Shown here: piece after piece, positions 37,040-57,957 of the stretch | How the letters are laid out: the number at the start of each line of letters is the position of its first letter | Position numbering within the stretch: the stretch's first letter is position 1 | Assembly (NCBI GenBank): GCA_000004985.1 | Contig: GG738896.1 | Origin: Naegleria gruberi | Taxonomy: Eukaryota | Length of the DNA: 64,000 nucleotides | Strand: one strand, 5' to 3' | Program-made: the position numbers and the translations under genes | The notes under the pieces: generated by a model | What the model was told of the DNA's origin: nothing | The model's database searches: none | The model's input: the letters and a program-made list of their open reading frames with translations, nothing else

Positions 37040-38008
37040 ATTTTCATTTATAAATTATTTCAAATTTATTTAATTACCACCTCTTAATCTCAAAACAAGA
37101 TGAAGAGTTGATTCCTTTTGAATATTATAATCAGATAATGTTCTTCCATCTTCTAATTGTTTACCAGCAAAAATCAATCTTTGTTGATCTGGTGGAATAC
37201 CTTCCTTATCTTGAATCTTTGATTTAACATTTTCAATTGTATCATTGGACTCGACTTCCAATGTAATTGTCTTTCCTGTTAAAGTTTTGACGAAAATTTG
37301 CATACCACCTCTTAATCTCAAAACTAAATGCAAAGTTGATTCTTTTTGAATGTTATAATCAGATAATGTTCTTCCATCTTCCAATTGTTTACCAGCAAAG
37401 ATAAGTCTTTGTTGATCTGGTGGAATACCTTCCTTGTCTTGAATTTTAGACTTGACATTTTCAATAGTGTCATTTGATTCAACTTCCAAAGTGATAGTCT
37501 TACCAGTCAAAGTTTTGACAAAGATTTGCATACCACCTCTCAATCTGAGGACCAAGTGAAGGGTTGATTCCTTTTGAATATTATAATCAGATAATGTTCT
37601 TCCATCTTCTAATTGTTTACCAGCAAAAATTAAACGTTGTTGATCTGGTGGGATTCCTTCCTTATCTTGAATCTTAGACTTGACATTTTCAATAGTATCA
37701 TTGGATTCGACTTCCAAAGTGATAGTCTTTCCAGTTAATGTTTTAACGAAAATTTGCATTGTGTTATAATTATTATTAGTTGTTTTGATTTGTTTTTTTT
37801 GTATTGATGAAGAAAATTAATGTTTTTAAAGGTTTTAAAGGGATGATGATATTTTATTTTTAGATTCAAGTTCGGAATTAAATTTTTGTTCCAAGAAACA
37901 AATCATCAAGTTCACCTTCTTTATTCCGTCTTTCCATTCATTACAAACTCTTGTAACCTAGATATCTAATTTCTTTCCAACTTGAATTCAATCTGATTTT
38001 GAAGGTAA
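37040..38008. repeat. arm 1 of an inverted duplication (polyubiquitin gene + ~250 bp 5' flank + ~28 bp 3' flank)
   Basis: The reverse complement of 37760..38008 aligns almost base-for-base with 56985..57239, for example TTTTTACCTTCAAAATCAGATTGAATTCAAGTTGGAAAGAAATTAGATATCTAGGTTACAAGAG... Similarity ends at ~38008/56985 and ~37040/57957. Confidence 0.65.
37070..37759 (-). CDS. polyubiquitin: three exact head-to-tail ubiquitin repeats plus a C-terminal Asn
   Basis: 3 x [76 protein letters not shown], then N and stop. This is 229 aa = 3x76+1. Confidence 0.9.
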
Positions 38009-39906
38009 AAAATCTAAGGAATATTGGAAGTATTACATGTGATTTTCTTATTATTATGTTATTAAACATCAAAACCTTTCTTTTGCAGTATGCAAAAAAT
38101 GAAGGAACACTAGGTGAAAAACCAATGATTCGGAGTTTGTTGATTTTCAACATGGTTTCACATCATCAAATAATGAAACCAACACATCATCATCTGGACA
38201 TCATCTAAGTAATAGTATTTGTGGAATTTTTAATTATTGGATTATTATCATTAAATTGGAAATGTTTTTTCAAGTTGAAAGTTTTATGAAATGGATTACC
38301 ATCATAAAGCATACCAACCATCCATATGGTGCCATTCATCATCAAAATATAATAGTAATGGTTGTGGAAATACATCTTGTAATAGTTAATAGATTCAATT
38401 TTTATAAATAAATATAATTTTTATTATATATAATATATATATTATATATAAAATCATCATCACTGGTCGATCTAATGGGAAAGATGGAAAACCAGCAATC
38501 TATCATTGTTCGGAATGATGAATAATAGGTTATGCAAATTTCTCCAGTGACTTTGTACCAAGAAATCATAGTATTAGGTTCATGTCAAATTTCACAATAT
38601 GTGCATGTGCCGTAGCTCAACATGTACTTCACCAACTTGGAAAATTTCTTCGAATAGTATTGTTCAAAATGACCTCCAACAACATTGTCATTATCGAATT
38701 TTTGATTTGATTGGTGGTTATGGAGATGAGAAAATTTCAAAATTTCCTTCATCAATTATTGGCTTGATTTCTCAAATTAAATCAACCAATTATTTACAAC
38801 AACACTATCATAGTATTAACAATAAATATTGTTAATAGTTTTTCTTCAATTTTTTTGAAATTTGCCTTAATTAAGATTTCTAAAATTTTATTAAGAATTG
38901 TTTCATTCAATTTTTATCCCACAAGCAATTATACAATGAACTGTAGATATATTGAATATAATAATTCATTCATTGAAATTTGCAATTCTAATCATGCAGA
39001 AACAGTTCTTAATTAACAAGTAGATCTACTGTTTCCCATGCATGATCTTGTTATTGAGTATGTACAGGAAAGTTCTAAACGAAACATTGGATGAAACTAA
39101 GGAATCAACAAAGTTTTTAAATTTTCCGTAATCTTTCTCTTCACGTTATCTAAAAAGAAGAAGGAGTTAGTCCAACTTCTTCGCTGGCATGATATGCCGC
39201 TATTCATTGATTGGTTTCTTGTTAAATTCATTGTAAACTAAACTAATGTTAGACAATGTCCCAAACACAAAACAATCAAGAAATCAAATGACAGTAAACT
39301 TCTTGTGGGCACTCAACTTACCTTCTTGGTACTGTTTTAATATGCCACCAAATAAATCCACATACATAAACTCACCATTTAATCGCTTTCGAATAATTAT
39401 TTGTTGCCAATGTTGGTTTATTGCATGTTGCATCTCTCGAAAATTTACTGAAACAAACGATTAATTGATTTATGGCAGTGTCCACTACTACCAAAAGACA
39501 AAACGCAGTTTTTGCTGATTGTTGACTGCTTGCTTTCTAATAATGCCGTATGAGCAAAACGATACCAAATGTGAAACTACTCCTTTCGAATAATTGCCTT
39601 CTCAAAGGTAACGTTTGTCATCAATCCTCATTTAAACCTCAATGGTAAGGTCCACCAAGCTTTTAAATGACTTATTTCTGACAAGTAGTGCGATACCTCA
39701 TGAAGCAACGTTTCGCTTTTTGTTACCCAAACATGAATTTAACAAAGGTTGTTGAGGGAGCGAAATGTTGTTTCGACCAGTTTCTTGTAAGTTTCGTATA
39801 TTTGTTTTTGCTTCAAATGTACCTCTCAGCAAGCGAAAACGCAAATTGTTGAAGTAAAAAACAAAACAATTCACAATCCACACTCTCTTCAAAGGAGACG
39901 AAACTT

Positions 39907-56736: not shown

Positions 56737-56984
56737 TTTTTTCTTGTTGTGTCATAAAGAATGGTGAACAAAACCAATTTAACCCATACAAACAGTTGAC
56801 AGTTATGGACAAATATGGATTATCTTAATTGTCAGCCACATTGGCTTAACGAAATCTCATTGAAAAGTTACTATCTCTTGGTCTTCTTCTACATCAACAA
56901 CCAAGTGTTTCTGTAGTACTTCCTTGTGCAAATAACTGTAACAAGACATATCAATAATAAATTAATTCCCTTTGATTGTGATTT

Positions 56985-57957
56985 TTACCTTCAAAATCAA
57001 ATTGAATTCAAGTTGGAAAGAAATTAGACATCTAGGTTACAAGAGTTACAGAATTGTATGAATGGAAAGAAGGAATAAAGAAGGTGAACTTGGTGATTTG
57101 TTTCTAGGAACAAAAATTTAATTCCGAACTTGAATCTAAAAATAAAACATCATCATCCCTTTAAAACCTGTAAAAACATTAATTTTCTTCATCAATACAA
57201 AAAAAACAAATCAAAACAACTAATAATAATTATAACACAATGCAAATTTTCGTTAAAACATTAACTGGTAAGACAATTACATTGGAAGTTGAATCAAACG
57301 ACACTATTGAAAATGTCAAATCAAAGATTCAAGACAAGGAAGGTATCCCACCAGATCAACAAAGACTCATCTTTGCTGGTAAACAATTGGAAGATGGAAG
57401 AACTCTCTCAGACTATAACATTCAAAAGGAATCAACTTTGCATTTGGTTTTGAGATTGAGAGGTGGTATGCAAATTTTCGTCAAAACTTTAACAGGAAAA
57501 CAATCACATTGGAAGTTGAATCCAATGATACAATTGAAAATGTCAAGTCTAAAATTCAAGATAAGGAAGGTATCCCACCAGATCAACAAAGACTTATTTT
57601 TGCTGGTAAACAATTAGAAGATGGAAGAACTCTTATCTGATTACAATATTCAAAAGGAATCAACTTTGCACTTGGTTTTGAGATTAAGAGGTGGTATGCA
57701 AATTTTCGTCAAAACTTTAACAGGAAAGACAATTACATTGGAAGTCGAGTCCAATGATACAATTGAAAATGTTAAATCAAAGATTCAAGATAAGGAAGGT
57801 ATTCCACCAGATCAACAAAGACTTATCTTTGCTGGTAAACAATTGGAAGATGGAAGAACTCTCTCAGACTATAATATTCAAAAGGAATCAACTTTGCATT
57901 TGGTTTTAAGATTGAGAGGTGGTAATTAAATAAATTTGAAATAATTTAAACTATTCA
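56985..57957. repeat. arm 2 of the inverted duplication (polyubiquitin locus plus flanks)
   Basis: See arm 1. The 5' flank 56985..57239 is near-identical to the reverse complement of 37760..38008. The 3' flank shares GGTAATTAAATAAATTTGAAATAATTTA before diverging. Confidence 0.65.
57240..57929 (+). pseudogene. second polyubiquitin locus (3 repeats) with a -1 and a compensating +1 frameshift in the middle repeat
   Basis: Repeats 1 (57240..57467) and 3 (57696..57929, ending RGGN) are intact and identical in protein to the 37070..37759 gene. Repeat 2 loses one nt at ~57498-57502 (GGAAAACAATCACATT, versus GGAAAGACAATTACATT in repeat 3). It gains one nt at ~57633-57640 (ACTCTTATCTGATTACAAT, versus ACTCTCTCAGACTATAAT), so about 45 codons are out of frame. 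The ORF track shows the break at 57617/57621. Confidence 0.6.

What the first reader, a model, noticed from the sequence alone, without database searches (positions are those of the whole stretch)
37040..57957. Two polyubiquitin loci form a ~970-bp inverted duplication 19 kb apart that includes the non-coding promoter/5' flank
The triple-ubiquitin gene at 37070..37759 (-) and the one at 57240..57929 (+) encode identical repeats. The ~250 bp upstream of each start codon and ~28 bp downstream are also nearly identical in inverted orientation. Identity decays abruptly at ~38008/56985 and ~37040/57957. Conserved non-coding flanks indicate recent duplication or ongoing gene conversion rather than mere selection on ubiquitin. 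Inverted repeats of this size can mediate inversion of the intervening 19 kb. That interval contains the GATA factor gene, both tRNA genes, the ubiquitin-like gene and the NHL and repeat-protein genes.
Basis: seen in the sequence. Interest (0 to 1): 0.55.

Follow-up and report, generated by a model that had tools for sequence, protein, structure and literature searches.

The report
Inverted pair of Naegleria polyubiquitin genes
Two copies of the polyubiquitin gene, each with its own upstream control region, lie head-to-head 19 kb apart in the amoeba Naegleria gruberi and still exchange sequence, which is an ordinary case of concerted evolution, although one copy carries two single-base frameshifts as assembled.

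Summary
The inverted repeat is real. Arm A is 37051-38011 and arm B is 56982-57948 (961 and 967 bp, 91.4% identity). It is the only inverted repeat of 60 nt or more in the window. Each arm is a complete polyubiquitin unit: about 250 bp of 5' flank, three head-to-tail ubiquitin units plus Asn, and 19 bp of 3' flank. The genes are transcribed away from each other.

Its unit 2 has a -1 and a +1 indel 133 bp apart, which create a stop codon. Every other difference between the arms is synonymous.

The window is Naegleria gruberi. The 5' flank (K=0.028) is about 25 times less diverged than synonymous sites (dS=0.72). The coding region is a mosaic containing a 147-bp perfect tract (P<1e-5). A contig from a 99.4%-identical strain carries a differently composed, intact gene at the arm B locus. 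Most of the flank is not conserved in N. fowleri.

So duplication followed by continuing gene conversion and unit shuffling is supported. Inversion of the interval is possible but untested. This is a new example of a well-known phenomenon, so interest is low.

The parts
37051..38011 (-). Arm A of the inverted repeat: a complete polyubiquitin transcription unit (5' flank, CDS and 19 bp of 3' flank)
   Evidence: 961 bp, 91.4% identical to arm B in inverted orientation.
37760..38011 (-). Arm A 5' flank (inferred promoter and 5' UTR), 252 bp
   Evidence: 244 of 251 aligned bases identical to 56982-57239; only the ATG-proximal ~70 bp are detectably similar to the N. fowleri flank. No HSE, TATA or STRE consensus.
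37070..37759 (-). Arm A polyubiquitin CDS: three 228-bp ubiquitin units plus an Asn codon and TAA, intact (229 aa)
   Evidence: The exact protein is XP_002674746.1, 'polyubiquitin [Naegleria gruberi]', and is identical to the N. fowleri protein.
37051..37069 (-). Arm A shared 3' flank (19 bp); an AATAAA overlaps the stop codon
   Evidence: Its role as a poly(A) signal is inferred.
56982..57948 (+). Arm B of the inverted repeat: the second polyubiquitin transcription unit
56982..57239 (+). Arm B 5' flank, 258 bp (7-bp and 1-bp indels relative to arm A)
57240..57929 (+). Arm B polyubiquitin CDS: three units, with unit 2 (57468-57695) frameshifted as assembled
   Evidence: The ORF splits into 57240-57617 and 57621-57929.
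57497..57500 (+). Site of the 1-bp deletion in arm B unit 2 (GGAAAGAC in other units, GGAAAAC here)
57631..57635 (+). Site of the 1-bp insertion in arm B unit 2 (ACTCTTATCTGAT). It lies at a junction between the two codon variants ACTCTCTCAGAC and ACATTATCTGAT found in other units
57615..57617 (+). Premature TAG stop in the shifted frame of arm B unit 2
57675..57821 (+). 147-bp tract identical between the arms (pairs with 37178-37324 on the minus strand); candidate recent conversion tract
   Evidence: 46 concordant variable-capable sites, P<1e-5.
37178..37324 (-). Arm A partner of the 147-bp perfect tract
38012..56981 (.). 18,970-bp interval between the arms: GATA factor 39907-41433 (+), tRNA-Gly 41594-41666 (+), ubiquitin-like gene 41926-42156 (-), tRNA-like 42261-42323 (-), DUF4116 protein 42446-44341 (-), NHL gene 44641-48722 (-), 2OG-Fe(II) oxygenase 50687-51919 (-), and ORFs with no Pfam match

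Best explanation
These are two paralogous UBI4-type polyubiquitin genes of Naegleria gruberi. They arose by inverted duplication of a roughly 1-kb transcription unit: about 250 bp of promoter and 5' UTR, three ubiquitin units plus a C-terminal Asn, and a stop codon overlapped by AATAAA.

The genes are head-to-head. They are transcribed outward and their promoters face the 19-kb interval. From established knowledge of polyubiquitin genes, each mRNA gives a polyprotein that deubiquitinases cut into free ubiquitin.

Since the duplication the arms have not diverged independently. Patches have been homogenised by non-allelic gene conversion: the 5' flank plus the first 29 bp of the CDS, and a 147-bp tract across the unit 2/3 boundary. 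Other parts have been reshuffled among units or overwritten from other ubiquitin sequences, leaving old synonymous divergence. The edges of the repeat are the edges of the originally duplicated segment, beyond which conversion cannot extend.

Arm B, as assembled, has just lost units 2-3 through a -1/+1 indel pair. This is either a very recent lesion or a consensus error.

Shown: the geometry, the mosaic pattern, the contrast between flank and synonymous divergence, greater similarity among paralogous units than to N. fowleri units, and a difference between strains. Inferred: promoter function, expression, the direction and timing of conversion events, and whether the frameshifts are real.
For: - Geometry and significance.
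- All 67 substitutions between the two CDSs are synonymous.
- NG86 dS between the arms is 0.72 (unit pairs 1.43, 0.65 and 0.40), against 5' flank K=0.028.
- Mosaic: the first half of B3 is identical to A3 and its second half matches B1. There is a 147-bp perfect tract, with a permutation P<1e-5.
- Units within the window differ by a mean of 23.7 of 228 positions, against 40.4 from N. fowleri units.
- The flank is not conserved across species beyond the ATG-proximal ~70 bp.
- Contig L003 (ENA ERZ929261) is 99.4% identical over 2.5 kb of TBCE and flank, yet only 92% identical in the polyubiquitin. It has at least 3 full units plus part of a fourth and no frameshift. Its last unit is A3-like (6 differences) rather than B3-like (14 differences).
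- Neither N. fowleri nor a second Naegleria-like species has ubiquitin upstream of TBCE, and the N. fowleri polyubiquitin locus is not syntenic with either arm, so the arrangement is lineage-specific.
- Concerted evolution, unit-number polymorphism and inter-locus conversion of ubiquitin genes are established (PMC10457151).
Against: - No outgroup exists for the flank, so 'old duplication with a recently converted flank' cannot be separated from 'young duplication with a CDS overwritten from other loci'.
- A1 and A2 have no close partner among the six units (minimum 21-23 differences). This needs either an unseen donor elsewhere in the genome or an old duplication.
- The ubiquitin part of L003 comes from a k=127 metagenome assembly and could be partly chimeric upstream of its last unit.
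- No expression data were available. No recognisable HSE, TATA or STRE elements were found in the flank.
- The frameshifts would make arm B largely non-functional, which fits poorly with its otherwise perfect synonymous-only record unless they are very recent or artefactual.
Confidence: 0.7

Rival explanations
1. The duplication is very recent (about 3% divergence, as in the flank). The high synonymous divergence of the CDS was imported afterwards by conversion from other, diverged ubiquitin-coding sequences elsewhere in the genome (another polyubiquitin locus or ubiquitin-ribosomal fusion genes) and by unit shuffling.
For: - Flank K=0.028.
- A1 and A2 have no close partner among the six local units.
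- The only N. gruberi accession for this exact protein (EFC42002.1) is about 2,000 accession numbers away from this scaffold's proteins (EFC39851-39923). This hints at a third locus (inference only).
- Inter-locus conversion between polyubiquitin and UbL40 genes is documented in Plasmodium (PMC10457151).
Against: - It requires several independent imports into a 690-bp CDS while leaving the adjacent flank untouched.
- No donor sequence is available for inspection.
- It is a variant of the best explanation rather than an alternative mechanism.
Confidence: 0.25
2. The duplication is old and there has been no exchange. The 5' flank is similar only because both promoters are under strong purifying selection.
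For: - The ATG-proximal ~70 bp are 100% identical between the arms and weakly similar to N. fowleri.
Against: - The distal 180 bp are still about 96% identical but not significantly conserved in N. fowleri.
- The 147-bp perfect tract inside a CDS with dS=0.72 cannot be explained by promoter selection.
- A strain-level difference exists at the arm B last unit.
Confidence: 0.07
3. The two indels in arm B unit 2 are consensus errors of the assembly. Arm B is then an intact 3-unit gene, and the first reader's 'identical repeats' would be correct.
For: - After repair the unit is perfect ubiquitin, and there is no non-synonymous change anywhere in arm B.
- The +1 site looks like a splice of two codon variants (ACTCT + TATCTGAT), as expected when reads from similar repeats or alleles are merged.
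- The related strain has an intact gene at this locus.
- Another apparent 1-bp frameshift lies in an A-run of the NHL gene at about 46395.
Against: - The assembly is Sanger-based (PMC9928731 table), and long ORFs of 1,000-2,000 aa elsewhere in the window are unbroken.
- TBCE shows no frameshift relative to L003 over 1.8 kb.
- Two compensating indels 133 bp apart can also result from one out-of-register repair event.
Confidence: 0.5
4. The inverted arms act as substrates for homologous recombination that flips the 19-kb interval, so the region is an inversion polymorphism or a switch.
For: - Arms of 961 and 967 bp with perfect runs of 147 and about 98 bp (69 bp of flank plus 29 bp of CDS).
- Evidence that the arms do exchange sequence.
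- Inverted segmental duplications are known to mediate inversions (own knowledge).
Against: - No sequence shows the alternative orientation.
- L003 covers only the outer junction, which an inversion leaves unchanged.
- Overall identity is only 91%, which reduces crossover efficiency.
- Synteny with N. fowleri is too poor to polarise the orientation.
Confidence: 0.1
5. One arm is an assembly artefact (a duplicated or misjoined contig), or a retroposed or transposed copy.
For: Repeats are error-prone in draft assemblies. The 3' boundary of the repeat lies about 20 nt after an AATAAA.
Against: - 73 mismatches and indels separate the arms, and all four flanks are unrelated.
- The junction between arm B and TBCE is reproduced in an independent metagenome contig.
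- There is no poly(A) tract or target-site duplication at the boundaries, and 250 bp of upstream sequence are included.
Confidence: 0.03

Closest known systems
Polyubiquitin genes (yeast UBI4, human UBB/UBC, Plasmodium pUb) and their concerted evolution
   Same: Head-to-tail 228-bp units with no spacer and one extra C-terminal residue. Differences between units are synonymous only. Unit number varies between strains. Similarity is mosaic, as expected from unequal crossing-over and gene conversion (background in PMC10457151).
   Different: Here two loci form an inverted pair 19 kb apart, and homogenisation demonstrably includes about 250 bp of non-coding 5' flank, which is far more similar than the synonymous sites. 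One copy is frameshifted as assembled.
Naegleria fowleri polyubiquitin locus (GCA_008403515.1, VFQX01000072; locus L001)
   Same: Identical 229-aa 3xUb+Asn protein, about 82% DNA identity, similar ATG-proximal ~50-70 bp, and an AATAAA shortly after the stop.
   Different: Only one copy lies within +/-10 kb, with different neighbours. Its three units are as different from each other (38 of 228) as from N. gruberi units (40 of 228), so there is little sign of recent homogenisation.
Divergent inverted gene pairs homogenised by gene conversion, such as Drosophila hsp70Aa/Ab and arm-to-arm conversion in palindromes (own knowledge, not checked here)
   Same: Inverted paralogues of a highly expressed or stress-related gene whose coding and proximal flanking sequences evolve in concert, with sharp homology boundaries.
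   Different: The spacer here is 19 kb and holds unrelated genes. The units are themselves internal tandem repeats, so exchange within and between loci is superimposed.
Inverted segmental duplications that flank inversion polymorphisms (own knowledge)
   Same: Inverted arms of about 1 kb bracketing a gene-containing interval.
   Different: No evidence of two orientations. The arms are short and only 91% identical.

Membership tests
Polyubiquitin (UBI4/UBC-type) gene | Two or more 76-codon ubiquitin units joined head to tail with no spacer, each ending in Gly-Gly | tested here: met
   Arm A has three exact 228-bp units, with PF00240 matched three times on the identical protein. Arm B has the same three-unit layout.
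Polyubiquitin (UBI4/UBC-type) gene | Extra C-terminal residue(s) after the last unit, then a stop | tested here: met
   Both arms end ...RGG-N-TAA.
Polyubiquitin (UBI4/UBC-type) gene | Uninterrupted reading frame through all units | tested here: inconclusive
   Met for arm A. Not met for arm B as assembled, because of the -1/+1 indels and a TAG at 57615-57617. Whether the indels are real cannot be decided without reads.
Polyubiquitin (UBI4/UBC-type) gene | Stress-inducible promoter (for example heat-shock elements, as in yeast UBI4) | tested here: not met
   No GAAnnTTC or TTCnnGAA dimers, STRE or TATA consensus in either flank or in N. fowleri. This is a consensus scan only; expression was not tested.
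Paralogues under concerted evolution by gene conversion | Mosaic of identical tracts within otherwise diverged sequence, beyond chance | tested here: met
   147-bp perfect tract covering 46 concordant variable-capable sites; 0 of 100,000 permutations reached this.
Paralogues under concerted evolution by gene conversion | [quoted passage not shown] | tested here: met
   23.7 differences per unit within the window, against 40.4 to N. fowleri units.
Paralogues under concerted evolution by gene conversion | Homogenisation extends into non-coding sequence that is not conserved between species | tested here: met
   Flank identity is 97.2%. The distal flank is not significantly similar to N. fowleri.
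Paralogues under concerted evolution by gene conversion | Exchange events visible between closely related strains | tested here: met
   L003 is 99.4% identical in TBCE and flank but only 92% in the ubiquitin region. Its last unit is A3-like, not B3-like. The k=127 linkage to the unique arm B flank covers the diagnostic sites. Caveat: it is a metagenome contig.
Inversion mediated by inverted repeats | Both orientations of the interval observed in a population or between strains | not testable with these tools
   No contig spanning an inner junction was retrievable.
Processed (retroposed) gene copy | Lacks the promoter, ends in a poly(A) tract and is flanked by target-site duplications | tested here: not met
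   About 250 bp of upstream sequence are shared, with no A-tract at the boundary and no direct repeats longer than 6 bp.

The most novel reading that the evidence does not exclude
The -1 and +1 indels that bracket a 133-bp patch of arm B unit 2 may be the two ends of a single out-of-register templated repair or gene-conversion event. That would be a snapshot of conversion acting as a mutagen and inactivating two of the three units in one member of a polyubiquitin pair. In addition, or instead, the arms may mediate a polymorphic inversion of the 19-kb interval.
Probability: 0.2. Interest if true: 0.4.

Novelty: new member of a known kind. Interest (0 to 1): 0.2.

Why it matters
This is a clean, small example relevant to the old debate over whether ubiquitin genes evolve by concerted evolution or by birth-and-death. 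In one 64-kb window, non-coding flank, synonymous sites and a strain comparison can be set side by side, and they favour continuing exchange.

There are also practical consequences for N. gruberi:
- The region is a likely source of mis-assembly or mis-annotation. The arm B frameshifts need checking.
- The 250-bp shared flank is a compact candidate promoter for transfection vectors.

Beyond that, the finding does not change how ubiquitin genes or genome rearrangements are understood.

Tried and rejected
- Exact-protein look-ups of the arms' neighbours, meant to find other assemblies spanning the junctions, found nothing: the 381-aa F-box/LRR ORF, the 589-aa ORF, the truncated 125-aa arm B product, and two N. 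gruberi proteins.
- The 76-aa ubiquitin-like gene returned only a 515-bp contig.
- Two exact DNA scans of JGI metagenome contigs, one with a promoter 29-mer and one with a CDS 34-mer, gave 0 hits.
- A homologue search with the polyubiquitin protein returned only generic polyubiquitins from plants, fungi and animals and was uninformative. A search with the 589-aa inner neighbour found no homologues at all.
- Synteny with N. fowleri (L001, L005) and a Logan Naegleria-like contig (L004) is limited to TBCE and DUF4116 family matches, so it could not polarise the orientation.
- I tested whether the genes downstream of the two arms (the F-box/LRR ORF and TBCE) are decayed paralogues of a once larger duplication. 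They share only generic LRR similarity.
- I looked for HSE, STRE and TATA elements, a 5' UTR intron, target-site duplications and a poly(A) tail. None was found.
- A yeast origin, suggested at first by the fungal-like ubiquitin variant and the Pet127 neighbour in L001, was rejected. The window is Naegleria gruberi.
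Full report
OBSERVATION

An inverted-repeat search of 36-59 kb, and then of the whole window, finds a single family of inverted matches, all between 37051-38011 and 56982-57948. A global alignment of the arms gives 961 versus 967 bp, with 886 matches, 73 mismatches and 10 gap columns (91.4% identity). The longest exact inverted match is 147 nt, against 16-20 nt in ten shuffles of the window, so chance is excluded.

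Each arm consists of three parts:
- A 5' flank of 252 bp (arm A) or 258 bp (arm B). 244 of 251 aligned bases are identical, there is one 7-bp and one 1-bp indel, and the 69 bp next to the ATG are identical.
- A 690-bp polyubiquitin CDS.
- 19 identical bases after the stop codon.

Identity ends abruptly on both sides. The left gene is on the minus strand and the right gene on the plus strand. They are therefore transcribed outward, with their 5' flanks facing the 18,970-bp interval.

CORRECTION TO THE OBSERVATION

Arm A (37070-37759) is an intact ORF of three identical ubiquitin units plus Asn. Arm B is not intact as assembled. Unit 2 (57468-57695) lacks one base at about 57499/57500 (GGAAAAC where other units have GGAAAGAC). 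It has one extra base at about 57631-57635 (ACTCTTATCTGAT). Forty-four codons are shifted and a TAG appears at 57615-57617, so the ORF list shows two pieces, 57240-57617 and 57621-57929.

Repairing just these two positions restores a perfect ubiquitin unit. All 67 other differences between the two CDSs are synonymous, at 41 third-position and 6 first-position variable columns per unit alignment.

ORGANISM

The gene content (DUF4116, NHL/teneurin-like, EGF, F-box/LRR, RNA ligase 1) and near-absence of introns pointed to a protist. The tubulin cofactor E (TBCE) gene just downstream of arm B is 55% identical to a Naegleria fowleri protein and 49% to a Willaertia magna protein.

Three ORFs of the window are exact matches to Naegleria gruberi proteins NAEGRDRAFT_72276, 72281 and 72283, on a 331,721-bp scaffold. 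The 229-aa product of arm A is XP_002674746.1, 'polyubiquitin [Naegleria gruberi]'. That assembly is Sanger-based (table in PMC9928731).

EVOLUTION OF THE PAIR

Nei-Gojobori synonymous divergence between the arms, unit by unit, is dS=0.72 (1.43, 0.65 and 0.40 for units 1-3). The non-coding 5' flank has K=0.028. A simple duplication followed by independent neutral divergence cannot make non-coding DNA 25 times more similar than synonymous sites.

The CDS is a mosaic:
- The first 29 bp are identical between the arms.
- A 147-bp tract (57675-57821 paired with 37178-37324) is identical and spans 46 consecutive sites that vary somewhere among 12 Naegleria units. None of 100,000 permutations reached this.
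- The first half of B3 equals A3 and its second half equals B1.

Units within the window differ on average at 23.7 of 228 positions, against 40.4 from N. fowleri units.

The flank is not deeply constrained. Against the N. fowleri polyubiquitin upstream region, only the ATG-proximal ~70 bp give a local alignment above shuffles (z about 4.5). The distal 190 bp are marginal.

STRAIN COMPARISON

An ENA metagenome contig (L003, ERZ929261, 3,338 bp) is 99.4% identical to window 58175-60696 (TBCE and the start of the next gene). It carries the arm B-specific 3' flank. Its polyubiquitin is only about 92% identical to either arm, has three full units plus the tail of a fourth, and has no frameshift.

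Its last unit differs from A3 at 6 sites and from B3 at 14. Its middle unit is A2-like (9 differences, against 25 to B2). Its first full unit is an A2-head/B1-body hybrid, preceded by a tail identical to A1.

The diagnostic sites of the last unit lie within one 127-mer of the unique arm B flank. The A3-like state of that unit at the arm B locus is therefore not a de Bruijn chimera, although the more upstream part of the contig could be. At 0.5% background divergence, a 6-8% difference confined to the ubiquitin repeat means exchange, and probably a change in unit number, has occurred since these strains separated.

LINEAGE SPECIFICITY

In N. fowleri the identical protein is encoded at a locus with different neighbours and no second copy within 10 kb. 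The TBCE loci of N. fowleri and of a Logan Naegleria-like contig have no ubiquitin upstream. The inverted pair is thus specific to the N. gruberi lineage.

There is no poly(A) tract or target-site duplication at the arm boundaries, and the shared segment includes 250 bp upstream of the ATG. Retroposition and transposition are therefore unlikely. The genes downstream of the two arms share only generic LRR similarity, so there is no sign that the duplication was once larger.

MECHANISM

The most likely account is as follows. A roughly 1-kb polyubiquitin transcription unit was duplicated in inverted orientation. The two copies, and the units within them, continue to exchange sequence by non-allelic gene conversion and unequal crossing-over. 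This is the process long described for ubiquitin genes (Sharp and Li 1987 and later work, summarised in PMC10457151). The repeat boundaries are the limits of the duplicated segment.

I cannot tell whether the duplication is old with a recently converted flank, or young with a CDS overwritten from other ubiquitin loci. A1 and A2 have no close partner among the six local units. The single N. gruberi accession for this protein is numerically far from this scaffold's accessions, which hints at a further locus (inference only).

Promoter function of the flank is inferred. [quoted passage not shown] An AATAAA overlaps the stop codon in both arms.

THE FRAMESHIFTS

Two readings are about equally likely.

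For a consensus error:
- The record is otherwise synonymous-only.
- The +1 site looks like two codon variants spliced together.
- The related strain has an intact gene at this locus.
- Another 1-bp frameshift lies in an A-run of the NHL gene near 46395.

For a real lesion:
- The assembly is Sanger-based.
- ORFs of 1,000-2,000 aa elsewhere in the window are unbroken.
- TBCE has no frameshift relative to L003.
- A -1/+1 pair bracketing one 133-bp patch is what a single out-of-register repair event would leave.

INVERSION

The arms could in principle recombine to flip the interval, but nothing available tests this. L003 covers only the outer junction, which an inversion leaves unchanged. All attempts to find contigs across the inner junctions failed.

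VERDICT

This is a new instance of a well-known behaviour of polyubiquitin genes, so interest is low (0.2).

Noticed in passing
window 44641-48722 (-), junction near 46383-46400: The NHL/teneurin-like gene is split into two overlapping ORFs in different frames. The NHL motif continues directly in the other frame (…GDLFIAK | GQNVIKKMDF…) and there is no room for an intron. This is an apparent 1-bp frameshift in an A-run, so either a pseudogene or an assembly error.
   Followed up: partly
window 42261-42323 (-): Rfam finds a second tRNA (37.9 bits, anticodon loop CUCUUAA, so Lys-CUU-like) that ARAGORN does not call. The T loop is reduced to 1 nt in the alignment, so it looks like a truncated tRNA pseudogene.
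   Followed up: partly
window 41926-42156 (-): A free-standing 76-aa ubiquitin-like gene, 50% identical to ubiquitin, with PF00240 at E=2e-23 and ending ...SWRGG with no extension. The exact protein is in the collection only from an ENA metagenome contig, not from the N. gruberi NCBI proteome, so it may be unannotated there.
   Followed up: partly
window 58312-60120 (+): The TBCE gene (CAP-Gly + LRR + ubiquitin-like domain) has a 100% match only in an ENA metagenome. No N. gruberi NCBI entry appeared among the hits, so the public gene model may be missing or different.
   Followed up: no
window 36997-37070: Only 72 bp separate the arm A polyubiquitin stop codon from the ATG of the next same-strand ORF (381-aa F-box-like/LRR protein, 35852-36997). 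That is a very tight 3' end/promoter arrangement.
   Followed up: no
window 57987-58174 versus L003:796-821: The related strain lacks about 165 bp of the spacer between polyubiquitin and TBCE that is present in the window. It also has a 3-bp in-frame indel (one Gln codon) at the start of TBCE.
   Followed up: partly
L001:10001-10690 (N. fowleri): The three ubiquitin units of the N. fowleri gene differ from each other at about 38 of 228 positions, as much as they differ from N. gruberi units (about 40). Homogenisation therefore seems much weaker or older in N. fowleri than in N. gruberi (23.7).
   Followed up: partly
window 38012-39900: A 1.9-kb stretch between arm A and the GATA gene has no ORF longer than 78 aa and holds a (TA)n-rich low-complexity patch at about 38390-38450. 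This is unusually long non-coding DNA for such a compact region.
   Followed up: no
window 9803-9811 (-): The G8/CEMIP-like gene (10263 down to 5828) is interrupted by what looks like a short GTAAGT...CAG intron at the 9803/9811 ORF junction. This shows that some ORF breaks in the window are introns rather than frameshifts.
   Followed up: partly
window 11934-18077 (+): A 2,047-aa ORF with dozens of teneurin-type EGF repeats and a C-terminal RGS domain. Its internal 117/354-bp periodic DNA repeats are the only other sizeable repeats in the window.
   Followed up: no
accession numbers: The only N. gruberi accession for the exact 229-aa polyubiquitin (EFC42002.1 / D2VMK5) is about 2,000 entries away from this scaffold's proteins (EFC39851-39923 / D2VTF0-7). 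This suggests that the annotated gene lies on another scaffold and that a third locus exists.
   Followed up: no
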